A stretch of DNA of 64,000 nt, taken from NCBI GenBank assembly GCA_963725155.1, contig CAVRXU010000002.1, forward strand, positions 492,506 through 556,505, given 5' to 3'. The notes beneath the pieces are model-generated. The model did no database searches. It was not told the origin of the DNA and was given only the letters and a program-made list of their open reading frames with translations. Shown one piece after another: positions 19,818-35,039 of the stretch (the first letter of the stretch is position 1; the number at the start of each line of letters is the position of its first letter). Both the position numbers and the translations under genes were made by a program. This DNA is from an uncultured Microthrixaceae bacterium. Lineage in GTDB: Bacteria; Actinomycetota; Acidimicrobiia; Acidimicrobiales; DATDAH01.

Positions 19818-20657
19818 TCAGGATGAGCCCGGGTCGGTAGCTGCGGTCTCGCCGTCCACGCCCACCGATTCCAGGATCACCGTGTCGTCGTTGTGGCTGT
19901 GGGTGAAACCGAGTTCTCGCTCGATCTTCACCGTCTCCTCGGAGCGATAGGCGACGACGTAGGCCCGCCGGAACCCGGCGGTCTGGTTCCCGCCCGAGCC
20001 GTGCATGACCTTCTCGTTGTGCACCGTGCAGTCGCCCCGTTGGATCGGCTCGACGACGACGTCGTCGCCATCGCGCAGGTCGGTGCCCAAGGCGTGGGAT
20101 TCGCCTCGGCCCCCGAACACCGGCGCATGCGGGCGCAACGACGCCTCGTGATTGGTCGCGGGAACGAATCGCATGCAGCCGTTCTCGACGGTCGACTCGT
20201 CCACGGCGAGCCAGAAGGTGGCGGTCCGCCGGTCGGGAGTGTCCGGCCAGTACGCCATGTCCTGGTGCCAGGCGAACACGGCATCGTCCTTGAACGGCTG
20301 CTTGGCCAGGAGCTGGTCGTAGTCGATCGTCATCCCGTCACCGCAGAGCTGGCGGGCGATGTCGGCCGTCCTGCGCTCGTACACGTTCCCCTGCCACGCC
20401 GGAAAGTACCGGCGGGGGAGCAGCACGTTGATGATCGAGTAGTCCGACGGATCACGGCCGTAGTCGCCGGCCATGTCGCAGAAGTCCTTGCCCGGCACCT
20501 CGATCTCGCGTCGCAGGAACCGGTCGTAGTCGACTTCCAGCTCGGCGACCTCGGTGTCGGTCAGCACCCCGGAGAGGTGGACATAGCCGTCCTCCCCGAA
20601 GCGCCGGCGATCCTCGTCATCGACGTGGTAGGTGCCATCCCGCTCGAGCCGACCCAT
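19818..20657 (-). CDS. phytanoyl-CoA dioxygenase (PhyH) family Fe(II)/2-oxoglutarate oxygenase
   Basis: DAVFAWHQDMAYWP (H-x-D), VMHGSGGN (distal His), RRAYVVAYR. Confidence 0.8.
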   Translation of the reverse strand: MGRLERDGTYHVDDEDRRRFGEDGYVHLSGVLTDTEVAELEVDYDRFLRREIEVPGKDFCDMAGDYGRDPSDYSIINVLLPRRYFPAWQGNVYERRTADIARQLCGDGMTIDYDQLLAKQPFKDDAVFAWHQDMAYWPDTPDRRTATFWLAVDESTVENGCMRFVPATNHEASLRPHAPVFGGRGESHALGTDLRDGDDVVVEPIQRGDCTVHNEKVMHGSGGNQTAGFRRAYVVAYRSEETVKIERELGFTHSHNDDTVILESVGVDGETAATDPGSS

Positions 20658-20695: not shown

Positions 20696-22912
20696 CTACT
20701 CGACGAAGAGCGGGTTGCCCCGCCGTACCTCGTCGAGCAGGCCCTCCTGGACGATGTCCCGCATGAACCAGTCCGGCAGGAACCGGTCGGAGCGGAGAGC
20801 ATCCCGGACCTGTGTGCCCGACATCGTCATGAGGTCGGCCCGTTGCGACATCTCGTAGGCGTCGGTGTCGCGGTTGTAGCCGACCGCATCGAAGAACACG
20901 GGCTCCACGCCGATGTCGCCGAGGGAGTCGAAGAGCTGCCGGTTGGCTTCGGGGGCATAGAAGTCACCGACGCCGGTGTGGTCGCGTCCGATGATGAAGT
21001 GGCTGCAGCCCATGTTCTTGCGACACAGAGCCGTGAAGACCGCCTCGCGGGGCCCGGCGTAGCGCGAGTAGGTGAAGAAGCTCCCGAGCACGACCTTGCC
21101 GCTCGGGTAGCAACCGAACTCCAGGAGCCGCTGATAGCTGGCGAGTATCGGCTCGGCCAGGAAGTCGCCGCGCTTCTTCGCCCCGACCACGGGGTTGATG
21201 TAGATGCCGTCGGCCCCGGTCTGCTCCAAGGCCTGCTTCTGGATCCATTCGTGGCCGCGATGCGCGACGTTCCGAGTGTGGAACCCGACCACGCGTGACC
21301 AACCCAGCCGCGTGAAGATGAACCGGGTCTGGGCCGGCGTCAACAGGTAGTGGCGGATGGGGGAGTCCAACGGTCGGACGAGGGTCACGTCGCCGGCGAC
21401 GAACCTGTCGCCCTGCGTCATCAGGTTGATGACGCCGGGATGGTGGCGGCTGGTCGTGCCGAACATCCGCTGGGCGAGGGTCTCGAGGTCGTAGTCGTAG
21501 ATCTCCGACACGTCCACGTAGGCGTGGACGGTCCCCCGATGGTCGGTCAGAACGACGCGATCACCCGGTCCGAACGGCGTCGGCGTCGCCGGGTCCACGG
21601 GGAGGAGGAGCGGCAGCGTCCAGACGTCGCCGCTCGGCAGGCGATGGGTGTCCAGGACCGCGTCGAGTGTCTCACGGTCCATGAACCCGGTGAGCGGCGA
21701 GTAGGTCCCATAGCCGATCTGCTCGCAATCCATGAGATCTCGCTCGGAGACGACCAAGCGAGGCAGATCCTCGAGCGTCGCCAGGTCGTCGGGGCCGGCC
21801 TCGCGGTGCACCAGCCAGCCACCGTGTGGCTCCACGAGCATCGAGACGGCGTCGAGTGCGTACACGCCGTCGCCCGAGAAATCCGTGTGCTTGAAGCCGC
21901 GGATGATCTTGTTGATCATCGAGACACATTCGACGGGATAGTCGCCGATCGCCGTCTCCGCCGCGAGCACCAAGCCGTCGGCGCCATCGACCAGCGTGTT
22001 GTAGACGTCGTTGACCTCAGCCCGGGTGGGCGTGGAGACCGACACCATCGACTCGAGCAGGTTGGTGGCGACATAGACGTGACAGTCCACGGCCTTGGCC
22101 CGGCGGATGATGGACTTCTGCGTCTGGGGGATGATCTCCATGGGCACCTGGCGGGAGAGATCCCCGCGGTCGATCAGCAGCGCGTTCGAGGCCGCCGCGA
22201 TCTCTTCGAGGTTCTTCAGGCCACTGCGAGACTCGATCTTGGAGATGACGAACGCGTCCTCACCGACGATCTCGCGCATCTCTCGCACGTCTGCCCCGCA
22301 ACTGGCGAAGGAGAGGGCAAAGTGCGACAAGCCCGCCTCGCGCCCCCACTTCATCGACGCCCGGTCCTTGTCGGTCAGCGGGGGCATCGGGATGTCCCGC
22401 TCGACGGTCACGGCCTTGTTCTGTCCGACGAGGCCACCTTGGAGCACCCGCATGGAGACGCTGTCGTCGTCGATGGCGACCACCTGGACGAGAACCGAGT
22501 TGAAGTCGATGCTGATGAAGTCCCCCAGCTCGAGCAGCCCGATGATGTCCAAGGGGTAGAAGTTGAAGTTCTTGTCATCGGCGGCGACGCGTCGGCGGTG
22601 GGCGCGCACAACGGTGCTGTCGCGCAACGTGATGCTTCCGTGAACGAAGGTGCCGGTGCGGATCTGCGCCCCCTCGCTGTCGAGGCAGATGGGAGCGTCG
22701 GTTGCCTCACGGATCCTGCGAACCAGTCCGGGCAGGTCCCCGAACTCCGTGTGCGACAGGTTGATGCGAAACACCGAGGCACCGCTCTCCTCGAGGCGCT
22801 GGATGGTGTGCCGCTCGAGGGACGCCGGCCCCAACGTGCACAGGATGGACGGCATCGTGCCGTCGAGGGCATCGGTGTCCGCGGCCTGATGGGCAGGCGT
22901 GTCGTCGTTCAT
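20696..22912 (-). CDS. fusion protein: pyruvate kinase-like A/B domains (no C-terminal regulatory domain) + ATP sulfurylase (sulfate adenylyltransferase)
   Basis: Start trimmed to MNDDTPAHQ (ATG 22912), 20 nt after the sulfotransferase stop. PK motifs ILCTLGPAS, FRINLSHT, LDSEGAQIRTG, PLTDKD, ISKIES, LIDRGDLS, ATNLLESM, PTRAEVNDV..LVDGADGLVLAAETAIGDYP. Sulfurylase motifs VEPHGGWL, GFHTRNVAHRGHEW, HFIIGRDHTGVG. Confidence 0.85.
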   Translation of the reverse strand: MNDDTPAHQAADTDALDGTMPSILCTLGPASLERHTIQRLEESGASVFRINLSHTEFGDLPGLVRRIREATDAPICLDSEGAQIRTGTFVHGSITLRDSTVVRAHRRRVAADDKNFNFYPLDIIGLLELGDFISIDFNSVLVQVVAIDDDSVSMRVLQGGLVGQNKAVTVERDIPMPPLTDKDRASMKWGREAGLSHFALSFASCGADVREMREIVGEDAFVISKIESRSGLKNLEEIAAASNALLIDRGDLSRQVPMEIIPQTQKSIIRRAKAVDCHVYVATNLLESMVSVSTPTRAEVNDVYNTLVDGADGLVLAAETAIGDYPVECVSMINKIIRGFKHTDFSGDGVYALDAVSMLVEPHGGWLVHREAGPDDLATLEDLPRLVVSERDLMDCEQIGYGTYSPLTGFMDRETLDAVLDTHRLPSGDVWTLPLLLPVDPATPTPFGPGDRVVLTDHRGTVHAYVDVSEIYDYDLETLAQRMFGTTSRHHPGVINLMTQGDRFVAGDVTLVRPLDSPIRHYLLTPAQTRFIFTRLGWSRVVGFHTRNVAHRGHEWIQKQALEQTGADGIYINPVVGAKKRGDFLAEPILASYQRLLEFGCYPSGKVVLGSFFTYSRYAGPREAVFTALCRKNMGCSHFIIGRDHTGVGDFYAPEANRQLFDSLGDIGVEPVFFDAVGYNRDTDAYEMSQRADLMTMSGTQVRDALRSDRFLPDWFMRDIVQEGLLDEVRRGNPLFVE

Positions 22913-22932
22913 GGGGGTCCTGTTCTCTGAAG

Positions 22933-23844
22933 TCAACGGTCGGCCACGGCCGCCGCGAGGTCGGTCGGGATCTCGTAACCGTGACGCTGCATCTCCTCGC
23001 GGAGCTCCGGAACGGCGCGAGCCAGATCTTGGGGATCGAGACGCCGCCATTTCTCTGTCCGGTCCGCTTTGACGGTCTCCTTCGCGGCGTTCACCATGTC
23101 GGTGGTCATCTGCAGGTCGCAGTGCGCACAGATGCGTTCCAAGTCGGCGACCGGGTCGTGGACGAAGTCCTCGTAGCGCAGTCGAAGGACTTCGCCTTCG
23201 CCGAACGAGGCGAGGTCCTGCTCGGCCTTCTTCGAGCCTTCCGCCCACTGTCGGGCGATCACGGTGAACATGTCCTCCACCGCGAGGTCGTCCTGTAGGG
23301 CTCGGTAGCGCGGTCCCCATGCCGGCAGATACGTGCTCCTCCGGACTCGCTTGGCGAACTGTTGGCGCCCGTACTTGGCGGCCTGGTGGTGCAACTGGCT
23401 GATCGGCGTCTCTCGCAGTCGCCTGATCGCACCGGTCGTGGTGACGGGACGCTGCCACTTCAACTCGACGGAGCTGATGAAGGAGAAGGGGTCCCGGACC
23501 ATGTACATGAACGTGGCTTCCGGGAAGATCGCCCTGACGTAGGGGATCCTCAGGATGTTGTGCGGTGACTTCTCCAGGACGATGGAGCTCCCGTGGTCCT
23601 CCTGGTACTCGAGGAACCGACCCCGGATGTACCGCTTCACCTTGTCGGTTGCGTCCCGTTCGTCGAACTCGTCGTGGTGTCGGCCCGGATCGGCGTACAG
23701 CCAGAGGGAGTTCGGCTCATACCAGCCGACGACATCGGGATGCACGGAGACGATGTTCTGGACGATCGTCGTTCCGGACCGGAAGTTGCCGAGGAGGATG
23801 ATGGGCGGCCGCAGCTCGGCGGCCCGTCCCTTGCCGCGGCTCAC
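22933..23844 (-). CDS. sulfotransferase family protein (PAPS-dependent type)
   Basis: 5'-PSB loop ILLGNFRSGTTIV. 3'-PB region YMVRDPFSF. ATGA overlap with the upstream epimerase gene (23841-23844). Confidence 0.8.
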   Translation of the reverse strand: MSRGKGRAAELRPPIILLGNFRSGTTIVQNIVSVHPDVVGWYEPNSLWLYADPGRHHDEFDERDATDKVKRYIRGRFLEYQEDHGSSIVLEKSPHNILRIPYVRAIFPEATFMYMVRDPFSFISSVELKWQRPVTTTGAIRRLRETPISQLHHQAAKYGRQQFAKRVRRSTYLPAWGPRYRALQDDLAVEDMFTVIARQWAEGSKKAEQDLASFGEGEVLRLRYEDFVHDPVADLERICAHCDLQMTTDMVNAAKETVKADRTEKWRRLDPQDLARAVPELREEMQRHGYEIPTDLAAAVADR

Positions 23845-24836
23845 CGCAGCACCTGTCGGCGGTCGCGGTGCCAGGCCAGCTGGGCCTCGATCCCCTCGCG
23901 GAGCCCCACCCGTGGCTGCCAGCCGAGGAGCGTGTGGGCCCGTTCGGTCGCCCCGCCGTTGCGCTTGGCGTCGCCCGCCTCAGGGGGATAGTCCTCGACG
24001 ATGACCTGGGTCCCGGCGAGGTCGCCCACCGTTGCGATGAGGTCGTTGAGCGTGATCTCCCCACCGCCGGCGATGTTGACGATCGTCCCGGGCGGGACGT
24101 CGGCCTCCGAGGCCAGGATGTTCGCGGCGACGATGTCGGCGACGTAGGTGAACTCCCGGACCTGGGTCCCGTCGCCGAACCGAGGGAAGCTCGCTCCGGT
24201 GAGCACGGCTTCGCAGAGCCGGTGGATCGACATGTCCGGTCGCTGCCGCGGACCGTAGACGGTGAAGTAGCGCAAGGCCACGGTCGGCACACCCCAGTTC
24301 TCGGCGTACAGCGCAGTCAGGTGCTCCCCGGCGAGCTTGGTCACGCCGTAGGGGCTGTACGGACGGGGCACGTCCGTCTCCACCGTCGGGTAGCGGTCCT
24401 GGTTGCCGTAGACCGACGAGGACGAGGCGTAGACGACACGGCGCACCTCGGCTTCCTTCGCGGCCTCGAGCAGCCGCTGAGTCGCGAGCACGTTGTGGCT
24501 GGCGTACTCGGGGAAGCCGTCGGACCAGGACAGACGAACGCCCGGTTGCCCGGCCTGGTGGAACACGGTGTCACACCCGTCGAACAACGTGGCGAGATCC
24601 ACCTCGCGGAGGTCGGCCTCGACGAGGGTGAAGCGCTCGTCCGCGAGCGCGCCCTCGAGGTTCGAGCGTTTCACCTCTTCCGTGTAGTACGAGGTGAAGC
24701 AGTCGATCCCGACGACGGTGTCGCCCCGAGCGAGCAGCGTGTCGACGAGGTGCGATCCCACGAACCCTGCGGCCCCCGTGACGACGTGGCGGGTCGCCGC
24801 GGGTTCCGGCCGGTTGGACCTGTGTGACTCGGTCAT
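23841..24836 (-). CDS. NAD-dependent nucleotide-sugar epimerase/dehydratase (UDP-glucuronate decarboxylase / 4-epimerase type)
   Basis: VTGAAGFVGSHLVDTLL Rossmann motif, SSSSVYG, YSPYGVTKLAGE (YxxxK). Confidence 0.85.
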   Translation of the reverse strand: MTESHRSNRPEPAATRHVVTGAAGFVGSHLVDTLLARGDTVVGIDCFTSYYTEEVKRSNLEGALADERFTLVEADLREVDLATLFDGCDTVFHQAGQPGVRLSWSDGFPEYASHNVLATQRLLEAAKEAEVRRVVYASSSSVYGNQDRYPTVETDVPRPYSPYGVTKLAGEHLTALYAENWGVPTVALRYFTVYGPRQRPDMSIHRLCEAVLTGASFPRFGDGTQVREFTYVADIVAANILASEADVPPGTIVNIAGGGEITLNDLIATVGDLAGTQVIVEDYPPEAGDAKRNGGATERAHTLLGWQPRVGLREGIEAQLAWHRDRRQVLR

Positions 24837-24852: not shown

Positions 24853-27042
24853 CTATGCGACCACGACGACTTGGGGCGGGTGCGTCCCCTGCGTGGTCTC
24901 GAACGCCCCGGTGTTCGTCGACGTCGTCGTGGCTTCGAACGAGTAGGTGCCGTTCCCGGTGATGGCGCTGGTCAGGTCGACTTCGACCCATGTGCCCACC
25001 GTGATGGCGCCGACAGAGGCGACCGGGCTGCCGGAGATGTCGGGCTTGTTGCCCCAGATCACCGTGTTCTCGGTCCAGTTGTTCGACACCAGGTACCAGT
25101 CGCCGCCCCTGGAGCTCGCGTCCTCGACGAAGAGCCGGAGCCTCACCGAGGTCGGTGGGCCGCTGAGCCCGTTCAGGGTGAACCTGACGAGCGACCGGTA
25201 CTCCGAGGGGTCGGGGAACTTGATCTTCATGGTCGGGGCCGTCGCGTAGTTCTTCGTCGGGCTGGAGGTGTTCACGTAGGTGTCAGCGTCGAGGGGCACG
25301 GTGAACTCGGTCGGTGCCTGGTTGACGGTGATGGTCTGCGAGCTGGACGTGGACCCTTGGGCGTTGGTGGCGGTCAGGGTTGCGGTGAAGGTCCGCGGCC
25401 AGGGCCCGGTGGTGGGGTTGTAGGTGTGGGAGGGCGATGTCGCCGTCGATGTGCCGCCGTCGCCGAAGTCCCAGGCGTAGCTGGTGGGCCCGCCGGTGCT
25501 CGTGTTGGTGAAGTTGACGGTGAGCGGCGCGGTGCCGGTGGTCGGCGTCGCGTTGAAACTCGCCGTCGGTGCCGATGGCTGGTTGACGGTGATGGTCTGC
25601 GAGCTGGACGTGGACCCTTGGGCGTTGGTGGCGGTCAGGGTTGCGGTGAAGGTCCGCGGCCAGGGCCCGGTGGTGGGGTTGTAGGTGTGGGAGGGCGATG
25701 TCGCCGTCGATGTGCCGCCGTCGCCGAAGTCCCAGGCGTAGCTGGTGGGCCCGCCGGTGCTCGTGTTGGTGAAGTTGACGGTGAGCGGCGCGGTGCCGGT
25801 GGTCGGCGTCGCGTTGAAACTCGCCGTCGGTGCCGATGGCTGGTTGACGGTGATGGTCTGCGAGCTGGACGTGGACCCTTGGGCGTTGGTGGCGGTCAGG
25901 GTTGCGGTGAAGGTCCGCGGCCAGGGCCCGGTGGTGGGGTTGTAGGTGTGGGAGGGCGACTGCGCGGTCGATGTGCCGCCGTCGCCGAAGTCCCAGGCGT
26001 AGCTGGTGGGCCCACCGGTGCTCGTGTCGGTGAAGTTGACGGTGAGCGGGGCTGTGCCGCTGGTCGGCGTGGCGGTGAAGCTCGCCGTCGGGGCTGTCCC
26101 ACCGGGTCCGGTGACGTCCATCACGAACACGGCGTGGGACATGGGATCCGAAGCCGGCCGCGCGCTGGTGTCGGCGCCGTCGGTGACGAGCACCTGTTCG
26201 CCGATGACCTCGACCCCACGGGTGTCGAGGAGGCCGAAGCCGGTGAGGCTGATGCCGTTCCATCCGGTCAGGAGAGTCCGGGTGGTCATCGACGCCCGGT
26301 AGAGCTTTTCACTGCTGTTGACGGCCAGGAGATCACCGGTGACGTCGTCGAAGTCGAGGCCGTAGATCTTGGAGAGCCCGGAGATGGAGAACGAGGGCCC
26401 GAACGTGTTCGTGACGAAGTCATAGGTGCGGATGGTCGAGCCGTTCGCGACGTAGGTGAGGCCGTCGGCCAGGCGCCACCCCGCGCCGGTCCACTCCGAC
26501 GGCAGCGGCTGCCAGGACTGGACCTGGAACTGGTGGTTGGCGTCCCGGGTCAGGCGGAAGGCGGTCGGGGTCGCGCTCGTGCTCCCGGAGAAGGCGTAGA
26601 TGACGTCGGCGTTCGCGTCGTAGGCGAGCGCCTCGAGGTCTTCGGTGCGCGACTGACCGGCGGCACCGCCCACGCCGAAGCGGGGCGCATTGGTGAAGGC
26701 CGCCTGCGCGACCTTTCGGCGCTGAAACCCCGTCGTGCGGTCGAACTCGAACAGGGCGTCGTCGTTGTCGGACGCCATCCAGAGCGCGTCATCCCCCGCG
26801 ACGTACGCACTGCCCTCGTTGTCCTGCAGCCGGGTCGTCGATCCCAGGGGGGGCGAGGTCCGAATCAGGTGGTTGAGGGCGAGGTGAGGCTGCGTCGTGG
26901 TGATCAGCGCGTGCGCGTTGCCGATCCCGACCACCGTGAAGGCGACCGCCGCAGTCAGCGCAAGCGCAATGAGTCGTCGGCCACTATCGGGCGAGCGTCG
27001 CGGTCGACCACTTCGGGGGATGTTGCGGGTCTCGTCAGCCAT
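24853..27042 (-). CDS. secreted protein, paralog 2: conserved N-domain + 3 PKD repeats + DNRLRE-like C-terminal domain
   Basis: Signal/TM RRLIALALTAAVAFTVVGIGNAHA. N-domain paralogous to 18152-19753. Three PKD units (FNATPTTGTAPLTVNFTNTSTGGPTSYAWDFGDGGTS). C-terminus DADTYVNTSSPTKNYA...SLVRFTL...VRLRLFV...WTENTVIWGNKP. Confidence 0.85.
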   Translation of the reverse strand: MADETRNIPRSGRPRRSPDSGRRLIALALTAAVAFTVVGIGNAHALITTTQPHLALNHLIRTSPPLGSTTRLQDNEGSAYVAGDDALWMASDNDDALFEFDRTTGFQRRKVAQAAFTNAPRFGVGGAAGQSRTEDLEALAYDANADVIYAFSGSTSATPTAFRLTRDANHQFQVQSWQPLPSEWTGAGWRLADGLTYVANGSTIRTYDFVTNTFGPSFSISGLSKIYGLDFDDVTGDLLAVNSSEKLYRASMTTRTLLTGWNGISLTGFGLLDTRGVEVIGEQVLVTDGADTSARPASDPMSHAVFVMDVTGPGGTAPTASFTATPTSGTAPLTVNFTDTSTGGPTSYAWDFGDGGTSTAQSPSHTYNPTTGPWPRTFTATLTATNAQGSTSSSQTITVNQPSAPTASFNATPTTGTAPLTVNFTNTSTGGPTSYAWDFGDGGTSTATSPSHTYNPTTGPWPRTFTATLTATNAQGSTSSSQTITVNQPSAPTASFNATPTTGTAPLTVNFTNTSTGGPTSYAWDFGDGGTSTATSPSHTYNPTTGPWPRTFTATLTATNAQGSTSSSQTITVNQAPTEFTVPLDADTYVNTSSPTKNYATAPTMKIKFPDPSEYRSLVRFTLNGLSGPPTSVRLRLFVEDASSRGGDWYLVSNNWTENTVIWGNKPDISGSPVASVGAITVGTWVEVDLTSAITGNGTYSFEATTTSTNTGAFETTQGTHPPQVVVVA
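25318..26100 (-). repeat. tandem repeat, 3 x 261 bp (one PKD domain per unit)
   Basis: Units 25318-25578 and 25579-25839 read identical base for base. Unit 25840-26100 differs at scattered positions toward its end. Confidence 0.95.
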
Positions 27043-27083: not shown

Positions 27084-27102
27084 GACCGCCCTGAGGGCGG
27101 TC
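27084..27102 (-). other. GC-rich hairpin overlapping the Wzx stop codon (possible intra-operon attenuator/processing site)
   Basis: GACCGCCC-tga-GGGCGGTC, an 8-bp perfect stem, between 27101-28594 and 24853-27042. No U-tract. Confidence 0.3.
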
Positions 27103-28594
27103 ATGGCGTCGACCTGACCAGGCCGGCCATCACGGCGCGGGGTTGCTGTCGTGTGGTCGCAGGTGTCTGCATCACCGCCAGGGCGGCGATGACCAAGACG
27201 TACACCACCATCCCGACCGCGGCCGACACGAGGAGGCCGCTGCCGCGCATGGCGACGATAGCGGCGCCCATCGGCACCGTCGCCGCGGCGGGGAGGCTCA
27301 CGGCGGACAGGAGGGCGGAGCGCCCCGCGACCTGCCGGAGGAGCATGGCGTAGGCGACGAAGAGGCCGGACTCGCAGACGACCGTGGCGATGCCCGCACC
27401 GAGGTACGAGTACCTGGGGATGAGGGCGAGGTTCAGCACCACGTTGACCGCGGCGGCCGCCGCGACCGCGAACATCCGGTACCGCTGACGGTCGGCGGCC
27501 ACGAGAGACAGGCTCAGCGTGTTCCCGAGCATCCGCACGGGGATGACGAGGACGAGCAGCTGGTAGGTGACGACCGCGGGGGCGAACTTGGGCCCGTAGA
27601 GGAAGTCGATGGTCTCGGGGGCGAGCAGGAAGCTGCCCACTGCGGCCGGCACCGCGATGAGGGAGATCGTCCGGAACGAGGCATCGCGGAGTGTGCGGAA
27701 GGTCCGCACCTGGTTCGGCCACGCCCGACTCATCCGGGGGTACAGGGCGTGGTTGAGCGACCGGGCGAGGACGTTGAGGTTCAGCACGAGGTTCGTGCCG
27801 GCCTGGTAGAGCCCGACCGCCGTCGGTCCCTTGATGAAGCCGAGCAGGACCGAATCGACGCGCATGTAGGTGAGCGTGAGGGTGTCGTTCACCGCGAACG
27901 GTGTGCTCCGCCACAGCACGCTGCGGACGAACGCGGGCGTGCCCCGGGGGATCGGGAAGGCGCCGAGGTGGCCGGCGACGATCAGCCAGCCGATCCCCGC
28001 CCCCAGTGCCCGAGAGCCGCAGAAGGCGAGCAGCGCGCCGGTGACACCGCCCCCCGACCAGACGACGTACGCCACGCCGGCGAGGAAGGCGGTCTCCTGC
28101 ACCACCGTGACGACGGCCTCCAGACGCATCCGCTCCCAGGCCCAGAACGCCGCGAACTGGACCCGGGCCACGCCGTCGAAGGCCATGCCGATGCTGGCCA
28201 GTGACACCGCGACGGCGGTCTCGGGGGCGGCGCCGATGACTCGGGACCCCACGGCGAACAGCAGGGTGAAGCACGCGCCTGCGCCCAGGGCGATCAGCGT
28301 TCCGGCCTCGACCCATGTCCGGCCCTCCTCCGGCTTCCTCGCCACCTCGCGGGCGAGCAGGCTGGGGAGCCCGAAGTAGTAGGGCAGGAAGCTGGTGAGC
28401 ACCAGTGCGAACTGGAAGGTGCCGAGCCCCTCCGGACCGCCGGACCGGGCGAGGAGCACGACGCTCCCCAGGCCCGCGATCGCCCGGGCGGCAAAGGAGA
28501 CCATCTGCCAGACCGAATTGGCGGCCACCCGCCGCGCGCCGGACTCGCGGGCGGGCGGGGAGGCGACGGTGGGGTCAGGAGCCATGGGCGCCAT
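27101..28594 (-). CDS. polysaccharide flippase, Wzx/MOP superfamily
   Basis: 497 aa with about 12-14 hydrophobic segments. N-terminus RRVAANSVWQMVSFAARAIAGLGSVVLLAR is typical of Wzx-type polysaccharide biosynthesis proteins. 20-nt overlap with the upstream gene. Confidence 0.8.
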   Translation of the reverse strand: MAPMAPDPTVASPPARESGARRVAANSVWQMVSFAARAIAGLGSVVLLARSGGPEGLGTFQFALVLTSFLPYYFGLPSLLAREVARKPEEGRTWVEAGTLIALGAGACFTLLFAVGSRVIGAAPETAVAVSLASIGMAFDGVARVQFAAFWAWERMRLEAVVTVVQETAFLAGVAYVVWSGGGVTGALLAFCGSRALGAGIGWLIVAGHLGAFPIPRGTPAFVRSVLWRSTPFAVNDTLTLTYMRVDSVLLGFIKGPTAVGLYQAGTNLVLNLNVLARSLNHALYPRMSRAWPNQVRTFRTLRDASFRTISLIAVPAAVGSFLLAPETIDFLYGPKFAPAVVTYQLLVLVIPVRMLGNTLSLSLVAADRQRYRMFAVAAAAAVNVVLNLALIPRYSYLGAGIATVVCESGLFVAYAMLLRQVAGRSALLSAVSLPAAATVPMGAAIVAMRGSGLLVSAAVGMVVYVLVIAALAVMQTPATTRQQPRAVMAGLVRSTP

Positions 28595-29822
28595 GCGGTA
28601 CGAGATCCCGCGAGGTCTGGGCAGTGTCCGGGAGCCCCGGCTCGTGCTCCCGCGTGAGGTACAGGGCCGCGACCACGGCGAGGAGGGTCCAGAAGTGCCG
28701 GTAGTGCAGCGCCTCGTGGGTCAGCGCGGTGAGCGCGATCCCCGCCGCCGCCCCCGCCAGGGCAGCGGGGTTGGGTACGACCGCCGCCCAGTCGGGTGAC
28801 AATCGCTGGGCGCCCATGACCCGCACGCCCGCCGCCCCGGCGAGGACGATCAGCGCGAAGATCCCGAGCGGCCCACGCTCGACGAGCGTGCCGAGGTAGT
28901 CGTTGTGCGCCTCCTTCGCGGGGCGGGTCGACGTGTCGGCCAGGCTGAAACGAGTCGCCGACGGACCGACACCGACGACGTTGCTCCGTTGATACAGCTC
29001 GTAGGACGACGCGAACAGGGACTCGCGCCCCTCTGCGCTCCGGGAGCTGCGGGCGACCGAATAGCGGAAGATGGGGTTGTCGGTCTTCTGCAGTGAGGCC
29101 ACCGTCGCCTGGCCCACCGTTGACCAGAGCACACCGCCGGCCAGGACGAGGCAGAGGGTGACGGCGATGGCGGGGATCGAGCCACTTCGGCCGTAGACCC
29201 GCAGGAAGACGATGACCAGGGCGCCGACCGGCAGGCACAGCAACGCCGTGTTCGACCCGGTCAGGAGAATGGCGATGACGAGTGTGACGACCGCCAGGGT
29301 TCGGAGCACCGGTTGCCTGGGGTGCCGGGCCGCGAGGATGACGAAGATGGAGATCACGAAGTAGTTGCCGGCCAGGTTGGGGTGATCGAACCAGAGGCGG
29401 GCCCGGTCCCCGTACCCGCCGACGCCTCCGGGCACCCGGATCTGGCCGGTGGACACGGTCACGATGAGGACGACGCCCCAGGCGATCGCACTCAGGCACC
29501 AGACACGGAGGAGGAACCCCAGCCGCTCCGGCGTCTTGCAGAGGCTCGTGATCGCCGCGCACCAGGCCAGGAGGAAGGCCTCCTGTATGACCGCACCGCC
29601 GCCGCGGGCCGGCGCCGTCCCGAGCAGGGCGGCGACCAACCCGGCCACGCCGAGCACCCCGAGCGGAACGGCGTAGGGAACGTGGAGTTGGGCCCTGGTG
29701 GTGCCGGCCCAGAGCAAGGTCAAGAGGATCCCCGCGCCGAGGAAGAGGTCGACGGGTCCCGTGTTCATGGGCCCCTTGGGGTTCAGCAGAGGAAGCATGA
29801 CGATGCCCATGCCGATCGCCAC
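28575..29822 (-). CDS. O-antigen ligase/polymerase family membrane protein (Wzy-like)
   Basis: Polytopic, with a large loop carrying PAKEAHNDYLGTLVERGPLG (Wzy_C-type H-N-x-Y/L...E-x-G motif). Confidence 0.75.
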   Translation of the reverse strand: MAIGMGIVMLPLLNPKGPMNTGPVDLFLGAGILLTLLWAGTTRAQLHVPYAVPLGVLGVAGLVAALLGTAPARGGGAVIQEAFLLAWCAAITSLCKTPERLGFLLRVWCLSAIAWGVVLIVTVSTGQIRVPGGVGGYGDRARLWFDHPNLAGNYFVISIFVILAARHPRQPVLRTLAVVTLVIAILLTGSNTALLCLPVGALVIVFLRVYGRSGSIPAIAVTLCLVLAGGVLWSTVGQATVASLQKTDNPIFRYSVARSSRSAEGRESLFASSYELYQRSNVVGVGPSATRFSLADTSTRPAKEAHNDYLGTLVERGPLGIFALIVLAGAAGVRVMGAQRLSPDWAAVVPNPAALAGAAAGIALTALTHEALHYRHFWTLLAVVAALYLTREHEPGLPDTAQTSRDLVPHGAHGS

Positions 29823-29887: not shown

Positions 29888-31213
29888 TCAGGACTCCACC
29901 TCAGGGCCCGAGGGCGCCCACGTCCCTGGCGTTGCCGCCGATTGGGCGGTGTGTCGGCGTCCGACCTTCGAGCCCAGGCCCGTCCGGAAGCGGGTCCAGA
30001 GCGCTCGGAGGTCGTCGCGGACGTGGTAGTGGGTCCACAGCGGGCCGGGATAGGCGATGATGCCCACGAGCGGCCACTGGGTGATGGCGAGCAGGTGCTC
30101 CAACCCACTGAGCGCGTCGCGTTGCAGCACCTCGGGAGCGACGACGACGAGGCCGTGACGAGCACGGTTCGAGCGCGGCCCGGGACGGGGTGCGTCCGGT
30201 CGTTCGGACCCGACCAGCTCGACGGCCACGTGAGGGACCGCGGTGCGAAGCCGTCCGGCCAGACCGTCGAGATCGACATCGGGGCCGACACGGGTGAGGT
30301 GGACGACGTCGAGGCGGGCGCTGCTGGCGGCCAGCCCGAGCTGAAGGCTCACGAGGTCGTCGTCGGAGTCGGCGAGTTCGGCGGAGCGACTCGACGGGTT
30401 CGGGATGCGGCCCAGGAGCGGCGCGCCGAGGACGTGGGCGAGGGCATCGCCGCTCACGATCGAGGGCCGAAGCGCTTCGATGACCGCGGCCAGGGCCACA
30501 CCCAGGATCAGCCCGAGCAGGCCGGCGACCGCCAGGTCAGCCGCCAGCCCGGATGACTCCGGGTGGCTCGGCGGCGTCGCCTGGTCGAGGAGTCGGGGAC
30601 TCGGTGTGGCATCGAGGGTCTGGCTCAGGGTGTCGCGCTGGCTCTGGATGTCGCTCTGACGACTGAGCGCCACGTCGAGCTGAAAGCGGAGCTGGTCGAT
30701 GTCTGCCCCTGGTTCCCCCGTGGCCTCGGTGATCCTGTCGATCTCCGCGTTGACGAGCTCCAGCCCGCTTTCGAGTTCAGCCAGGCGATCCTCCATCGGA
30801 CCGATGAGCAGGTCGTGACGGGAGGACACCAGCTGCTGGGCCATGCCGTTGGCCAGCGCACTGGCGACATCGGGGTCGCCGTCGGTCACCGACACGACGA
30901 GCACGCCGGAGCCCCCGACCGACTCGACATCGATCTCATCGACGACGCGGGTGGGGTCACGGTCGATTCGCTCCCTCTGGAGAGCGGCCTCGATCTCGGT
31001 CTGGCTGGTGACGATGGCCTTCGCCGTGTCGACCATCGCCTCTGACTCCTCCGCGGTGGTCGCGTCGGTGCCGAAGTAGGCACGAGCGGACGCCACGTAG
31101 GAGGCGTCGCCTTGCGCGCCCAGGAGGAACGGGAGCGACAGGAAGACGACGACCATGGCGAGGATCAGTCGACCGTGACGCAGGATGCGTTGTACCGCTT
31201 CGGTCAGCTCCAC
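29888..31213 (-). CDS. Wzz-like chain-length determinant with degenerate (Walker-A-less) C-terminal domain
   Basis: GTG start at 31213. N-terminal TM LILAMVVVFLSLPFLL, a coiled-coil periplasmic region, second TM LAVAGLLGLILGVALAAVIEAL. No GxxxxGK(S/T) in the C-terminal cytoplasmic domain. Confidence 0.7.
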   Translation of the reverse strand: MELTEAVQRILRHGRLILAMVVVFLSLPFLLGAQGDASYVASARAYFGTDATTAEESEAMVDTAKAIVTSQTEIEAALQRERIDRDPTRVVDEIDVESVGGSGVLVVSVTDGDPDVASALANGMAQQLVSSRHDLLIGPMEDRLAELESGLELVNAEIDRITEATGEPGADIDQLRFQLDVALSRQSDIQSQRDTLSQTLDATPSPRLLDQATPPSHPESSGLAADLAVAGLLGLILGVALAAVIEALRPSIVSGDALAHVLGAPLLGRIPNPSSRSAELADSDDDLVSLQLGLAASSARLDVVHLTRVGPDVDLDGLAGRLRTAVPHVAVELVGSERPDAPRPGPRSNRARHGLVVVAPEVLQRDALSGLEHLLAITQWPLVGIIAYPGPLWTHYHVRDDLRALWTRFRTGLGSKVGRRHTAQSAATPGTWAPSGPEVES

Positions 31214-32055
31214 TGCGTTCTCCTCGTCATCTGGGGGTGGTGCGGCGCTCCGCCGCGATCAGGCTCGGGTCGCCGGTCGAGCCCGAGATCCGATCGTGGC
31301 GTTGCCAACTCCGACAACACGCCCTTCAGATCGGTTGCGTCACCCGTGTAGTCGTCCGTGCGGCCGTGGAGCAGGTGCAATGATGCCACCAACGCCGCGG
31401 GATCGATGGGGCGGTCGCCGTTGACGATGCGTCGCACGGTCGTCGCCACGCGGTCACCGAACTGCGCCGTCCACGAGGCGAGCATCGCCTCGACCAACTT
31501 GGCCTGTCGCTCGAGCTCGCGACGGCGACCCGCACCGGCGGCCTCCACCCGGCTCTCCCGCCCGGGTCGGGCGGCGAGACGCAGGTCGGCGAGCCCGAGG
31601 TCGGATTCGACCACGACGATCAGGTCCGGCGCCAGCAGCGCGACCCCGGGATCGGCGATGTCGATGACCGACGCCGCGTCGCCGGCGAACCCGAGCGAGC
31701 AGAGCTCCTGCACCAGGCCCTGGTCGAAGACGTGGAAGCCGGGTGTGGTGCTCGCCCGTCGCATCGCGGCCCGGAGCACGAGCCAGTTGAGCGACCGGAT
31801 GGCGACATCACGCCGCGTCGGCTGGTGGGAGCGCCTGACGGCCTGAACCGTCCGCGCCGAAGCCTGGGGGTGGCCGGCGATCTCCGCCGCGGCCCGCCGG
31901 AGCTTGCGGCGCAGTCGATCCCCGCGCGATCGGCGCGGGGAGACCTCCTCGAGCGGCAGCGAGGCCGCATGGCCCCGGCGGCGCAGCTCGGCGACGAGCG
32001 CATGAGCGACGGTCGACTTGCCCGAGCCGGGCACGCCGCAGAGTTCGATGATCAC
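31204..32055 (-). CDS. stand-alone P-loop NTPase / nucleotide-kinase-like protein
   Basis: GTG start overlaps the upstream stop (GTGA at 32052-32055). Walker A CGVPGSGKSTVAHAL, then HVFDQG and PDLIVVVESD (kinase-fold-like order). The upstream part of the 436-aa track ORF is read-through. Confidence 0.65.
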   Translation of the reverse strand: MIIELCGVPGSGKSTVAHALVAELRRRGHAASLPLEEVSPRRSRGDRLRRKLRRAAAEIAGHPQASARTVQAVRRSHQPTRRDVAIRSLNWLVLRAAMRRASTTPGFHVFDQGLVQELCSLGFAGDAASVIDIADPGVALLAPDLIVVVESDLGLADLRLAARPGRESRVEAAGAGRRRELERQAKLVEAMLASWTAQFGDRVATTVRRIVNGDRPIDPAALVASLHLLHGRTDDYTGDATDLKGVLSELATPRSDLGLDRRPEPDRGGAPHHPQMTRRTQWS

Positions 32056-34010: not shown

Positions 34011-34798
34011 CGTGATTCGCCGGGCTCGGGCCGCAGGACGCACCGGACGGTTCGGCGCAGGATGTCGACGTCCCCGACGAGCGAGCGGTTGAGCGCATAC
34101 TCGACGTCGAGGCGGACGCGTTCCTCGTAGGGGATCGCGTTGCGGCCGTTCACCTGCCAGGCGCCGGTCATGCCCGGTCGCACCTGGAGCACGACTTGGG
34201 CACAACTGCCGTATCGCCCGAGTTCCTCGGGGACGACGGGCCGCGGGCCCACCAGGCTCATGTCACCCCGCAGGACGTTGATCAGCTGGGGCAGCTCGTC
34301 CAGGCTCGTCCGGCGAAGAACGCGGCCGACGCGGGTGATCCGCGGGTCGGACTGGAGCTTGAAGTCCTTCTCGAACGCGGCGCGCGCCTCCGGGTCCTCG
34401 AGGAGGATGACCGCGAGCCGCTCCTCGGCGTCGGTCCGCATCGTCCTGAACTTCATGCACTCGAATGGCTCGCCGTGCCTGCCGATGCGGGTCTGGCGGA
34501 AGATCGCCGGCCCTCGGGACGTGAGGGCCACCGCGGCCGCCACCACCAACATCAAGGGTGCGGTCAGGATGGTGATCAGACTCGCGACGACGAGGTCGAA
34601 CGTGCGCTGGGCCGCGTCGGCTCGAAGGCACCGTCCCCGGGCCCGCTCGACCATCCGGGCCTCGAAGGCCAACCTCCCGGACTCGACCTGCGGGCGGGCC
34701 AGCGCGCGCAACAGCGCAGCCGGTGTGACCGCCGAACCCGGACCCGCGGCCGGCTGGACGGTGGCCGACGTGTCGGCCAACTCAGTGGTAACCGCCAT
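34007..34798 (-). CDS. polyprenyl-phosphate sugar phosphotransferase (bacterial sugar transferase, WbaP/EpsL-type initiating enzyme)
   Basis: Start trimmed to MAVTTELADTS (ATG 34798, SD GAGGGAGAGGGG). TM FDLVVASLITILTAPLMLVVAAAVAL. Motifs KFRTM and SLDELPQLINVLRGDMSLVGPRP. Confidence 0.9.
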   Translation of the reverse strand: MAVTTELADTSATVQPAAGPGSAVTPAALLRALARPQVESGRLAFEARMVERARGRCLRADAAQRTFDLVVASLITILTAPLMLVVAAAVALTSRGPAIFRQTRIGRHGEPFECMKFRTMRTDAEERLAVILLEDPEARAAFEKDFKLQSDPRITRVGRVLRRTSLDELPQLINVLRGDMSLVGPRPVVPEELGRYGSCAQVVLQVRPGMTGAWQVNGRNAIPYEERVRLDVEYALNRSLVGDVDILRRTVRCVLRPEPGESR

Positions 34799-35004: not shown

Positions 35005-35039
35005 ACGTCTCAGCATAATGCCGACATGTAGTCAGCATT
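34995..35039. promoter_or_regulatory. array of two adjacent palindromes built from ATGCTGA(G/C)AC-type half sites (candidate transcription factor operator)
   Basis: 34995-35016 ATGCTGAGAC-ac-GTCTCAGCAT (perfect 10+10). 35017-35039 AATGCCGAC-atgta-GTCAGCATT (one mismatch). Related half sites at 10483-10491 (GTCAGCATT), 35852-35858 and 35890-35896 (AATGCT.). Confidence 0.5.

What the first reader, a model, noticed from the sequence alone, without database searches (positions are those of the whole stretch)
20696..22912. Pyruvate-kinase-like catalytic domain fused in frame to ATP sulfurylase
A single 738-aa product begins with a pyruvate kinase A/B-domain core. The motifs I recognise as catalytic or metal-binding are kept: RINLSH, DSEG.QIR, SKIES, DRGDLS, ATNLLESM, PTRAE...ETAIGDYP. 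The C-terminal allosteric domain is missing. The product continues directly into a complete ATP sulfurylase (PHGGWL, HTRNVAHRGH, GRDHTG). The sulfotransferase immediately upstream should need PAPS, yet no CysC-type APS kinase signature is visible anywhere in the window. Two readings are possible. The PK module may regenerate ATP locally from PEP to pull the unfavourable sulfurylase reaction. More speculatively, it may use PEP to phosphorylate APS and so replace APS kinase. I do not recall this architecture being described.
Basis: partly seen in the sequence, partly recalled or inferred. Interest (0 to 1): 0.78.

Follow-up and report, generated by a model that had tools for sequence, protein, structure and literature searches.

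The report
Pyruvate-kinase module fused to ATP sulfurylase
A bacterium that makes a sulfated slime polysaccharide carries one gene that joins a pyruvate-kinase-like domain to the sulfate-activating enzyme; this widespread but unstudied arrangement most likely uses phosphoenolpyruvate to keep ATP high and ADP low while the sulfate donor PAPS is made.

Summary
Window 22912..20696 (minus strand) is one uninterrupted 738-aa gene: a pyruvate kinase (PK) A/B barrel without the C-terminal domain, a flexible linker, a PUA-like domain and an ATP sulfurylase (ATPS). A PAPS-type sulfotransferase lies 20 nt upstream, inside a Wzx/Wzy exopolysaccharide cluster. The window holds no canonical APS kinase.

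The fusion is not an artefact. More than 120 full-length homologues (68-94% identical) were listed, and 561 tblastn-confirmed relatives were found in metagenomes (80 examined, all PK-ATPS matches). They occur in Acidimicrobiia, Chloroflexota, Planctomycetota, KSB1, Calditrichota and Alphaproteobacteria, and carry only generic names.

All canonical PK catalytic residues are invariant. In more divergent relatives, a canonical cysC lies immediately downstream in 22 of 53 loci. PK-ATPS-APS-kinase triple fusions, a PK-APS-kinase fusion and an apparently independent fusion of a full-length PK to ATPS also exist.

The PK module therefore accompanies APS kinase and does not replace it. Best inference: it regenerates ATP from PEP and scavenges ADP for PAPS synthesis.

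Still unexplained: family-invariant substitutions in both active sites, the His that replaces the sulfate-binding Gln of QXRN, and the source of APS kinase in this genome. No paper describing the fusion was found. I rate it a new variant of a known kind, of moderate interest.

The parts
20696..22912 (-). PK-ATPS fusion gene (738 aa, ATG 22912, TAG 20698-20696)
   Evidence: Continuous ORF. Pfam finds PK + PUA_2 + ATP-sulfurylase. More than 120 full-length homologues share the same three Pfam domains.
21923..22849 (-). Pyruvate-kinase A/B barrel domain (residues 22-330), without the C-terminal allosteric domain
   Evidence: PF00224, E 2.5e-65. Closest PDB entry is 7oo1, P. aeruginosa pyruvate kinase, E 1.3e-57. 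The AF2 model superposes on rabbit PK at 2.9-3.3 A over about 345 columns. Equivalents of R72, N74, S76, H77, D112, R119, K206, K269, E271, D295, T327 and E363 are invariant in 125-126 of 126 family members.
21806..21886 (-). Inter-domain linker (residues 343-369)
   Evidence: pLDDT is below 50 in the AF2 model, while both flanking domains are confidently folded.
21377..21832 (-). PUA-like N-terminal domain of ATP sulfurylase (residues 361-512)
   Evidence: PF14306, E 7.3e-38.
20738..21352 (-). ATP sulfurylase catalytic domain (residues 521-725), with FHTRN in place of the QXRN motif, plus HRGH and GRDHTG
   Evidence: PF01747, E 5e-63. Closest PDB entry is 8a8d, M. thermolithotrophicus ATPS, E 6e-82. 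His545 is invariant in 126/126 members.
22933..23844 (-). Sulfotransferase (Sulfotransfer_3), 20 nt upstream and probably co-transcribed
   Evidence: PF13469, E 7e-27. The 5'-PSB motif RSGTT and the 3'-PB Arg and Ser align with TPST2 and are present in all 21 family members with sequence at these positions. The orthologue is immediately upstream of the fusion in 17 of 20 close loci.
19818..20657 (-). PhyH-family Fe(II)/2-oxoglutarate dioxygenase, 38 nt downstream of the fusion
   Evidence: PF05721, E 1.3e-29. A GGAGG ribosome-binding site precedes it. It is conserved only in the nearest relatives, L001 and L009.
23841..24836 (-). NAD-dependent sugar epimerase/dehydratase
   Evidence: PF01370, E 1.3e-55.
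24853..27042 (-). Protein with PKD repeats and a CBM96 carbohydrate-binding module; probably secreted (inferred from domain types, no signal peptide tested)
   Evidence: PF18911 and PF24517. Orthologues are present in related clusters.
27101..28594 (-). Wzx-type polysaccharide flippase
   Evidence: PF01943.
28575..29822 (-). Wzy/O-antigen-ligase-type polymerase
   Evidence: PF04932.
31204..32055 (-). P-loop protein A (about 283 aa), similar to nucleoside-monophosphate kinases; substrate unknown
   Evidence: Weak AAA_33 and APS_kinase P-loop hits only. A family profile hits TMPK, dNK and AK structures weakly. It is co-conserved with the fusion in the window's clade.
32052..34205 (-). GT4 glycosyltransferase with a C-terminal thymidylate-kinase-like P-loop domain B (about 32052-32852). 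The true start is probably downstream of 34205.
   Evidence: Pfam GT4 domains plus P-loop hits. The P-loop B profile hits thymidylate kinase structures at E 4e-11, with a DRY motif.
34007..35167 (-). Priming sugar transferase (Bac_transf); coordinates are stop-to-stop
   Evidence: PF02397, E 1.9e-65.
35887..37077 (+). NTP_transf_5-like protein. In other phyla this domain is fused to P-loop domain B.
   Evidence: PF14907, E 8.5e-5. Fused versions occur at L010:13059-14654 and L016:13662-15155.

Best explanation
The gene encodes a bifunctional enzyme of a dedicated sulfate-activation module for exopolysaccharide sulfation.

The C-terminal half is a homo-oligomeric-type ATP sulfurylase that makes APS from ATP and sulfate. 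This is shown by homology and motif conservation. APS is then phosphorylated to PAPS by a canonical APS kinase. That kinase is encoded elsewhere in this genome (inferred). In relatives it lies next to the fusion or is fused to it (shown). The adjacent PAPS-type sulfotransferase uses the PAPS to sulfate the Wzx/Wzy-made polysaccharide (inferred from context).

The N-terminal half is a catalytically competent pyruvate-kinase A/B domain that has lost the allosteric C-domain. It most likely converts ADP + PEP to ATP + pyruvate right beside the sulfurylase (inferred). This would do three things:
1. Recycle the ADP released by APS kinase into the ATP that the sulfurylase adenylylates. Net reaction: ATP + PEP + sulfate gives PAPS + pyruvate + PPi.
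2. Keep ADP low. ADP occupies the ATPS active site much as APS does, and it traps APS kinase in the dead-end E-ADP-APS complex.
3. Free PAPS supply from the allosteric control that governs glycolytic PK.

The PK module does not make the sulfurylase step itself favourable. That pull still comes from APS kinase and PPi removal.
For: **Fusion is real and conserved.** The ORF is continuous. All 120 listed homologues have PK + PUA_2 + ATPS. The metagenome scan gave 561 tblastn-confirmed relatives. About 70 representatives at the 50% cluster level are full-length fusions.

**PK catalytic and nucleotide/PEP-binding residues are kept.** They are invariant in 125-126 of 126 members and are retained in nearly all full-length representatives that share the family-type PK domain. 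The B-domain lid is modelled confidently, and the PK fold is confirmed.

**ATPS motifs are kept.** RN, HxxH and GRDH are present.

**The sulfotransferase is PAPS-type.** It has the 5'-PSB and 3'-PB residues in all 21 members with sequence at these positions. It sits immediately upstream of the fusion in 17 of 20 close loci, and the two are joined in one ORF in L011.

**Guilt by association with APS kinase.**
- cysC is immediately downstream on the same strand in 22 of 53 divergent loci, and present in 29 of 71.
- L097 has sulfotransferase, fusion and cysC in a row.
- L010 has a Pfam-verified APS kinase in the same cluster.
- P0157, P0158 and P0170 are PK-ATPS-APSK triple fusions, and P0231 is a PK-APSK fusion.

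**Fusion with a full-length PK.** P0191 has PK_C and K+-independent-type motifs and is fused to the same ATPS type. This suggests a separate fusion event and argues that ordinary PK chemistry is what is selected.

**Biochemical rationale (PMC3734648).** APS kinase forms a dead-end E-ADP-APS complex, and ADP binds the sulfurylase nearly identically to APS.
Against: - No enzymology exists for any family member, so PK activity is inferred from residue conservation only.
- The PK-like clade has invariant non-canonical residues close to the active site: rabbit-numbering K114E, P116A, E117Q, A292D, G297S, I298R, Q328N, S361A. These could mean a changed substrate or cation requirement.
- Both halves score below the NCBIfam equivalog cut-offs: TIGR01064 262.5 against 306.4, and TIGR00339 296.3 against 322.95.
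- The ATPS half replaces the sulfate-contacting Gln of QXRN with His in every member examined (role of Gln195 from PMC6607087).
- In the window's own clade no APS kinase is linked (0 of 20 immediately downstream). I could not show that this genome has one.
- The AF2 model gives a low-confidence linker and therefore no evidence of substrate channelling.
Confidence: 0.6

Rival explanations
1. The PK-like domain is a PEP-dependent APS 3'-kinase that replaces CysC, so the single protein makes PAPS.
For: There is no APS kinase in the 64-kb window and none adjacent in 19 of 20 close-clade loci. The sulfotransferase needs PAPS. The PK active-site region carries invariant unusual residues, including a new Arg after the Mg-binding Asp (DRGDLSR).
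Against: The same PK-like clade, with the same signature residues, is fused to or adjacent to canonical APS kinase in many lineages. Examples are the triple fusions and the PK-APSK fusion, cysC immediately downstream in 22 of 53 loci, and L010 within the close clade. That arrangement would be redundant if PK did this job. PK chemistry transfers phosphoryl to a terminal phosphate oxygen, not to a ribose 3'-OH (established PK mechanism; my own knowledge).
Confidence: 0.04
2. In the sulfotransferase-adjacent clade, the fusion is part of a PAP-to-PAPS salvage loop. A co-conserved NMP-kinase-like P-loop protein phosphorylates PAP to 3'-phospho-ADP. The PK domain makes 3'-phospho-ATP from it with PEP. 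The His-variant sulfurylase then converts that directly to PAPS, bypassing APS kinase.
For: Two NMP-kinase-like P-loop proteins (thymidylate-kinase-like) are co-conserved with sulfotransferase + fusion across four phyla, in exactly the clade that lacks a linked cysC. Both active sites carry unexplained invariant changes. Computational models place Gln195 of QXRN near the ATP ribose hydroxyl as well as near sulfate (PMC6607087).
Against: This is pure speculation; no such pathway is known. The signature residues are identical in members fused to APS kinase, so they are not specific to a salvage clade. L010 has the P-loop proteins and a cysC together. The P-loop domains are fused to a glycosyltransferase or a nucleotidyltransferase, which points to a sugar or nucleotide-sugar role.
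Confidence: 0.05
3. The PK-like domain is not a working ATP regenerator. Instead it is a PEP-binding regulatory or scaffolding domain, analogous to the degenerate APS-kinase-like allosteric domain of fungal ATP sulfurylase, that ties sulfate activation to carbon status or drives oligomerisation.
For: It has lost the C-domain and deviates from canonical PK at several conserved positions. It scores below the PK equivalog cut-offs. There is precedent for degenerate enzyme domains acting as regulators on ATP sulfurylase (P. chrysogenum; my own knowledge).
Against: Every catalytic, metal-binding and phosphate-binding residue of PK is invariant across members that are only 33-60% identical overall. 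That pattern is typical of a working active site, not a pseudoenzyme. A canonical full-length PK is also found fused to the same ATPS type (P0191).
Confidence: 0.1
4. The PK-like domain uses PEP (or makes pyruvate) for a different step of polysaccharide synthesis, for example phosphorylating another NDP or a sugar acid. It is fused to the sulfurylase only for co-expression.
For: PK enzymes accept several NDPs and some alpha-hydroxy acids (my own knowledge). The clusters contain many nucleotide-sugar enzymes, and in some loci they contain PEP-using NeuB-like synthases.
Against: The partners of this PK-like clade are specifically ATP sulfurylase and APS kinase, in at least four different fusion arrangements. 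The surrounding glycan genes, by contrast, vary widely. No pyruvyl-transferase was seen among the window cluster genes that I scanned.
Confidence: 0.12

Closest known systems
Homo-oligomeric (Sat-type) ATP sulfurylase, e.g. Methanothermococcus thermolithotrophicus ATPS (PDB 8a8d) and Thermus thermophilus ATPS (1v47)
   Same: It has the same PUA-like plus catalytic domain layout. The RN, HxxH and GRDH motifs are kept. The match to 8a8d has E 6e-82 over the whole C-terminal half.
   Different: It carries an N-terminal PK domain. The QXRN Gln is replaced by His, and GRDHAG becomes GRDHTG, in the whole clade. It scores below the TIGR00339 cut-off.
Pyruvate kinase (PykA/PykF/PKM; closest PDB 7oo1, P. 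aeruginosa pyruvate kinase)
   Same: It has the A (TIM-barrel) and B (lid) domains. All catalytic, Mg2+/K+-site and phosphate-binding residues are present.
   Different: It has no C-terminal allosteric/tetramerisation domain. It carries clade-invariant substitutions K114E, P116A, E117Q, A292D, G297S, I298R, Q328N and S361A. It scores below the TIGR01064 cut-off. It is fused to sulfate-activation enzymes.
Bifunctional PAPS synthases (ATPS-APSK fusions: human PAPSS1/2, Aquifex aeolicus 2gks, Thiobacillus denitrificans 3cr8)
   Same: Enzymes of sulfate activation are fused on one chain to serve PAPS-dependent sulfation. The ATPS half is homologous.
   Different: The fused partner here is a PK barrel, not APS kinase. 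Some relatives (P0157, P0158, P0170) carry all three domains.
CysD-CysN (GTPase-coupled) ATP sulfurylase
   Same: The functional idea is the same: an energy-supplying nucleotide-handling module is attached to sulfate adenylylation.
   Different: CysDN belongs to an unrelated protein family. There, GTP hydrolysis is mechanistically coupled to APS formation. Here, PK would only regenerate ATP and remove ADP. This comparison rests on my own knowledge and was not tested.
PK/PEP ATP-regeneration as used in vitro in coupled APS-kinase assays and enzymatic PAPS synthesis
   Same: The proposed chemistry is the same: ADP from APS kinase is recycled with PEP. PK appears in PAPS-synthase papers only as a coupling enzyme.
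   Different: That is a laboratory set-up of separate enzymes. Here the arrangement is encoded naturally as a fusion.

Membership tests
Pyruvate kinase (EC 2.7.1.40; PF00224 + PF02887; TIGR01064) | PK A/B barrel domain | tested here: met
   PF00224 covers residues 22-330 at E 2.5e-65. The fold match to rabbit PK has rmsd about 3 A.
Pyruvate kinase (EC 2.7.1.40; PF00224 + PF02887; TIGR01064) | Catalytic Lys, Mg ligands (Glu, Asp), K+-site residues, Thr proton donor, ADP-phosphate-binding Arg and Lys | tested here: met
   R49, N51, S53, H54, D78, R85, K166, K225, E227, D251, T283 and E319 align to the canonical positions and are invariant in 125-126 of 126 members.
Pyruvate kinase (EC 2.7.1.40; PF00224 + PF02887; TIGR01064) | C-terminal alpha/beta (allosteric) domain PK_C | tested here: not met
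   There is no PF02887 hit. The PK match ends at residue 330-340 and is followed by the linker and PUA_2.
Pyruvate kinase (EC 2.7.1.40; PF00224 + PF02887; TIGR01064) | Score above the curated equivalog cut-off | tested here: not met
   TIGR01064 scores 262.5 bits against a cut-off of 306.4.
Pyruvate kinase (EC 2.7.1.40; PF00224 + PF02887; TIGR01064) | PEP + ADP to pyruvate + ATP activity | not testable with these tools
   This needs an enzyme assay.
Sat-type ATP sulfurylase (EC 2.7.7.4; PF14306 + PF01747; TIGR00339) | PUA-like domain plus catalytic domain | tested here: met
   PF14306 at E 7e-38 and PF01747 at E 5e-63. PDB 8a8d matches at E 6e-82.
Sat-type ATP sulfurylase (EC 2.7.7.4; PF14306 + PF01747; TIGR00339) | HXXH and (V)GRDHAG motifs | tested here: met
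   HRGH (551-554) and GRDHTG (642-647) are present. The His, Arg, Asp and His residues are invariant in 126/126 members.
Sat-type ATP sulfurylase (EC 2.7.7.4; PF14306 + PF01747; TIGR00339) | QXRN motif with the sulfate-contacting Gln | tested here: not met
   The sequence is FHTRN. His545 replaces Gln in 126/126 members, while R547 and N548 are kept. The role of the Gln is taken from PMC6607087.
Sat-type ATP sulfurylase (EC 2.7.7.4; PF14306 + PF01747; TIGR00339) | Score above the curated equivalog-domain cut-off | tested here: not met
   TIGR00339 scores 296.3 bits against 322.95. NF003166 scores 350.8 against 387.
Bifunctional PAPS synthase (ATPS + APS kinase) | APS kinase domain (PF01583) on the same chain | tested here: not met
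   There is no PF01583 hit in the protein or anywhere in the window. Relatives P0157, P0158 and P0170 do have it.
PK-ATPS fusion family (unnamed; this report) | Domain order PK barrel - PUA_2 - ATPS, with the signature LD[TS]EG[AS]Q.R, DRGDLSR, ATNLLESM, LAAETAIG and FH[TS]RN | tested here: met
   All signature strings are present in the window protein. They are conserved across 126 close members and most representatives.
PAPS-dependent sulfotransferase (the neighbouring gene) | 5'-phosphosulfate-binding loop and 3'-phosphate-binding Arg and Ser | tested here: met
   RSGTT and VRD...S align to TPST2 R183 and S191. They are present in all 21 members with sequence at these positions.

The most novel reading that the evidence does not exclude
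In the clade to which this window belongs, a sulfotransferase is adjacent, no APS kinase is linked, and two NMP-kinase-like P-loop proteins are co-conserved. In this clade the PK-like and His-variant sulfurylase domains might perform non-canonical nucleotide chemistry. For example, they might regenerate PAPS directly from the by-product PAP through 3'-phospho-ADP and 3'-phospho-ATP, or they might otherwise make PAPS without APS kinase. That would be a new route of sulfate activation driven by PEP.
Probability: 0.07. Interest if true: 0.9.

Novelty: new variant of a known kind. Interest (0 to 1): 0.55.

Why it matters
PAPS supply limits every biological and biotechnological sulfation, including enzymatic heparin synthesis and the making of sulfated metabolites. 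Chemists already add pyruvate kinase and PEP to PAPS-making enzyme mixtures. This gene family suggests that bacteria evolved the same solution as a single polypeptide, apparently more than once, and in combinations with APS kinase and even with the sulfotransferase.

If the inference is confirmed, it would add a third type of energy coupling to sulfate activation, alongside PPi hydrolysis and the CysN GTPase. It would also provide ready-made PEP-driven PAPS synthases. Finally, it would give a genomic marker for sulfated exopolysaccharide production in abundant uncultured soil, sludge and sediment lineages (Acidimicrobiia/Microthrixaceae, Anaerolineae, Caldilineaceae, Planctomycetota, KSB1). 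Sulfated EPS has been reported chemically in such habitats (PMC10483923, PMC9723792), but its genetics are poorly mapped.

The invariant His in the sulfate pocket and the altered PK active-site shell are concrete, testable leads on specificity.

Tried and rejected
1. **Sequencing artefact or two genes.** Rejected. The ORF is continuous and hundreds of orthologous fusions exist.
2. **The sulfotransferase uses APS, so no kinase is needed.** Rejected. The 3'-phosphate-binding Arg and Ser are conserved.
3. **The cluster's P-loop proteins are divergent APS kinases.** Not supported. P-loop B matches thymidylate kinases. P-loop A matches NMP/dN kinases only weakly, and matches APS kinase only at the Walker A loop. 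Both coexist with a true cysC in L010.
4. **Finding cysC elsewhere in the source genome.**
   - The window-wide tblastn and HMM searches were negative.
   - Look-up of the window protein's contig returned no DNA.
   - A CysC homologue search, inspected for hits on a contig of the same length as the source contig (1,074,665 bp), found none among the best 120.
   - The question therefore stays open.
5. **Structure prediction.** I repeated it with alignment A4. The model has a disordered linker and gives no information on whether the active sites face each other.
6. **Literature.** Six full-text searches and two targeted paper checks found no description of a PK-ATP-sulfurylase fusion. PK appears only as a coupling enzyme in assays.
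7. **PK supplies pyruvate or PEP for ketal-pyruvylation.** Rejected. No pyruvyl-transferase was found among the scanned cluster genes.


Full report

Yes. The coordinates are right, but the gene lies on the minus strand: ATG at 22912, TAG stop at 20698-20696, 738 codons, no internal stop. The 920-aa GTG ORF that the ORF lister reports is an upstream extension that overlaps the neighbouring gene in another frame. A 738-aa homologue with 100% coverage supports the ATG.

Pfam places a pyruvate kinase barrel at residues 22-330 (E 2.5e-65), a PUA_2 domain at 361-512 and an ATP-sulfurylase domain at 521-725 (E 5e-63). There is no PK_C domain.

The upstream gene (22933-23844, minus strand) is a Sulfotransfer_3 protein. 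It is separated from the fusion by 20 nt that contain an AGGA ribosome-binding site. A PhyH dioxygenase follows 38 nt downstream.

No APS kinase exists in the 64 kb. tblastn with a recalled E. coli CysC sequence gave only Walker-A-level hits. An HMM built from genuine CysC genes of related loci scored at best 18 bits in the window, against 125-267 bits for the real genes.

**2. The setting**

The window has about 70% G+C. The closest relatives of the fusion protein (94-95% identity) come from Acidimicrobiales MAGs.

Genes from about 19.8 to 37 kb form a Wzx/Wzy-type exopolysaccharide cluster. In order they are:
- PhyH dioxygenase
- the PK-ATPS fusion
- sulfotransferase
- NAD-dependent epimerase/dehydratase
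- a PKD-CBM96 protein
- Wzx flippase
- Wzy polymerase
- a 441-aa protein of unknown function
- a P-loop protein
- a GT4 glycosyltransferase with a second P-loop domain
- the priming Bac_transf sugar transferase
- a LuxR-type response regulator
- an NTP_transf_5 protein

The sulfotransferase aligns with tyrosylprotein sulfotransferases over the 5'-phosphosulfate loop (RSGTT) and the 3'-phosphate-binding Arg and Ser. Both elements are present in all 21 orthologues with sequence at these positions. It is therefore a PAPS-type enzyme, not an APS-using one.

**3. The fusion is a large, conserved family, not an artefact**

All 120 best hits in the 5.8-billion-protein collection are proteins of about 740 aa with the same three Pfam domains, 68-94% identical to the window protein. 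The only source names are 'pyruvate kinase', 'ATP sulfurylase' and 'sulfate adenylyltransferase'.

Genome and metagenome scans gave 14 and 561 confirmed relatives respectively. Of the 80 metagenome loci examined, all are PK-ATPS matches, nearly all spanning both halves, down to 44% identity. Named taxa in the genome scan and source annotations include Acidimicrobiia/Microthrixaceae, Anaerolineae, Caldilineaceae, Planctomycetota, Calditrichaceae, KSB1, Rhizobiaceae and Rhodospirillales.

An exhaustive HMMER search of 1.84 billion representatives shows about 70 clusters (at 50% identity) of full-length fusions.

**4. Are the two halves likely to be active?**

*PK half.* Aligned to solved PKs and across 126 family members, every residue known to bind PEP, Mg2+, K+ or the nucleotide phosphates is invariant. 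In rabbit numbering these are R72, N74, S76, H77, D112, R119, K206, K269, E271, R293, D295, T327 and E363. The B-domain lid is present and confidently modelled. The model superposes on rabbit PK at about 3 A.

The clade also carries invariant departures from canonical PK: K114E, P116A, E117Q, A292D, G297S, I298R, Q328N, S361A and G362A. These are found in every architecture of the family.

*Sulfurylase half.* It is closest to the M. thermolithotrophicus enzyme (PDB 8a8d, E 6e-82). It keeps RN, HxxH and GRDH, but the sulfate-contacting Gln of QXRN is His in 126 of 126 members. The role of Gln195 is taken from PMC6607087.

*Cut-offs and model.* Both halves fall below the NCBIfam equivalog cut-offs. 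The AF2 model (pLDDT 79, pTM 0.71) shows two well-folded halves joined by a low-confidence linker at residues 343-369. It says nothing about channelling.

**5. What do neighbours and fusion partners say?**

I clustered all ORFs of 100 loci and built HMMs for the recurrent neighbours. Two patterns emerged.

*The window's own clade (at least about 66% identity; 21 non-redundant loci).*
- The orthologous sulfotransferase is immediately upstream in 17 of 20 loci with enough sequence.
- In one KSB1 MAG (L011) the sulfotransferase, PK and ATPS form a single 1069-aa ORF.
- cysC is never immediately downstream. It is adjacent upstream in L026.
- In L010, a Pfam-verified APS kinase (E 5.7e-66) lies 4.4 kb away in the same cluster.

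*The more divergent members (71 loci).*
- A canonical cysC is present in 29.
- It is immediately downstream on the same strand in 22 of the 53 loci that have at least 700 nt of downstream sequence.
- L097 has sulfotransferase, fusion and cysC in a row.

*Representatives of unusual length.*
- P0157, P0158 and P0170 are PK-PUA-ATPS-APS-kinase triple fusions.
- P0231 is a PK-APS-kinase fusion whose PK half is 58% identical to the window's.
- P0189 adds an N-terminal nucleotide pyrophosphatase/phosphodiesterase domain.
- P0191 joins a full-length PK (with PK_C and K+-independent-type motifs) to the same His-variant sulfurylase. This suggests a separate fusion event.
- Stand-alone barrels of 324-350 aa with the family signature, and stand-alone FHTRN-type sulfurylases, also exist.

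**6. Interpretation**

The PK-like module is a recurrent, specific companion of the two PAPS-synthesis enzymes. Because it is so often fused or adjacent to a canonical APS kinase, it does not replace that enzyme.

The simplest function that fits the intact PK active site is ordinary PK chemistry. That view is reinforced by the fusion of a canonical-type PK to the same sulfurylase type, and by the partnership with APS kinase, which is the ADP-producing step.

Under this model, ADP released by APS kinase is re-phosphorylated with PEP, and the ATP is used by the adjoining sulfurylase. The net reaction is ATP + PEP + sulfate giving PAPS + pyruvate + PPi.

There is an established biochemical reason why ADP removal should matter. 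APS kinases are trapped by APS in a dead-end E-ADP-APS complex, and ADP binds the sulfurylase active site almost exactly as APS does (PMC3734648).

The sulfurylase releases PPi, not ADP, so PK cannot shift that equilibrium directly.

All of this is inference from sequence and context. No member has been assayed, and I found no paper on the fusion.

**7. What remains unexplained**

First, the invariant non-canonical residues around both active sites have no explanation.

Second, the source of APS kinase in this genome is unknown. Only 64 kb were available, and indirect attempts to find a cysC on the 1.07-Mb source contig failed.

Third, the window's clade co-conserves two P-loop proteins and an NTP_transf_5 protein across four phyla. 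Profile searches place the P-loop domains with thymidylate and NMP kinases rather than with APS kinase, and they coexist with a true cysC in L010. I therefore do not regard them as APS-kinase substitutes.

They do leave room for a speculative PAP-to-PAPS salvage loop through 3'-phospho-ADP and 3'-phospho-ATP. I give that, or any other APS-kinase-independent route, about 7%.

**8. Verdict**

The protein is not a member sensu stricto of either the pyruvate kinase equivalog (no C-domain, below cut-off) or the canonical Sat equivalog (QXRN not met, below cut-off). It very probably works like both.

It is best described as a new, widespread and uncharacterised variant of the PAPS-synthesis machinery, in which a PEP-dependent ATP-regenerating module is built in.

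Interest is moderate. The likely mechanism is unsurprising chemistry. However, the family is large, conserved across phyla, apparently assembled more than once, linked to sulfated exopolysaccharides in abundant uncultured bacteria, and directly useful for PAPS biocatalysis.

Noticed in passing
window 19818-23844 (minus strand): The PhyH / PK-ATPS / sulfotransferase trio has third-codon-position GC of 0.76-0.82, against 0.84-0.95 for the flanking genes. Window GC dips to 0.66 here. The fusion protein is also about 70% identical across different phyla. Together these suggest a horizontally mobile module.
   Followed up: partly
L011:4106-7315: In a KSB1 MAG, the sulfotransferase, the PK domain and the ATP sulfurylase lie in one 1069-aa ORF with no stop codon between them. 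This is either a genuine triple fusion or a lost stop in the assembly.
   Followed up: partly
proteins P0157, P0158, P0170, P0231, P0189, P0191, P0213: Other architectures are built on the same PK-like clade: PK-ATPS-APS kinase, PK-APS kinase, phosphodiesterase-PK-ATPS, full-length PK (with PK_C)-ATPS, and PK-CBS. Stand-alone PK barrels of 324-350 aa also exist.
   Followed up: partly
window 31204-32055 (-), 32052-32852 (-), 35887-37077 (+); L010:13059-15407; L016:6107-6898 and 13662-15155: Two paralogous NMP-kinase-like P-loop domains and an NTP_transf_5 domain are co-conserved with sulfotransferase + fusion across Acidimicrobiia, Anaerolineae, Calditrichaceae and KSB1. Domain B is fused to NTP_transf_5 in other phyla but to a GT4 glycosyltransferase in this window. 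Their function is unknown.
   Followed up: partly
L014:12157-13887, L008:12183-13802 and other loci of cluster c24: In alphaproteobacterial and other divergent loci, a sulfatase-family (PF00884) gene sits directly next to the fusion instead of the Sulfotransfer_3 gene. These loci are nonulosonic-acid-type sugar clusters with DegT, CTP_transf_3, NeuB-like and carbamoyltransferase genes.
   Followed up: no
L019:12250-13626, L031:1362-2234 and cluster c5/c19 members: Na+/H+-exchanger-family and TauE/SafE-family membrane proteins recur immediately beside the fusion in several phyla. They are candidate sulfate or sulfo-compound transporters.
   Followed up: no
window 8541-10505 (-) and 10499-13477 (+): A 654-aa protein carries three neocarzinostatin-family repeats. 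Next to it is a 992-aa protein with two CBM_4_9 modules. Both lie upstream of the polysaccharide cluster.
   Followed up: no
window 21278-21280 (codon His545) and family-wide: The sulfate-contacting Gln of the ATP sulfurylase QXRN motif is His in every member of this clade, including stand-alone sulfurylases such as P0188, P0223 and P0237. GRDHAG is mostly GRDHTG.
   Followed up: partly
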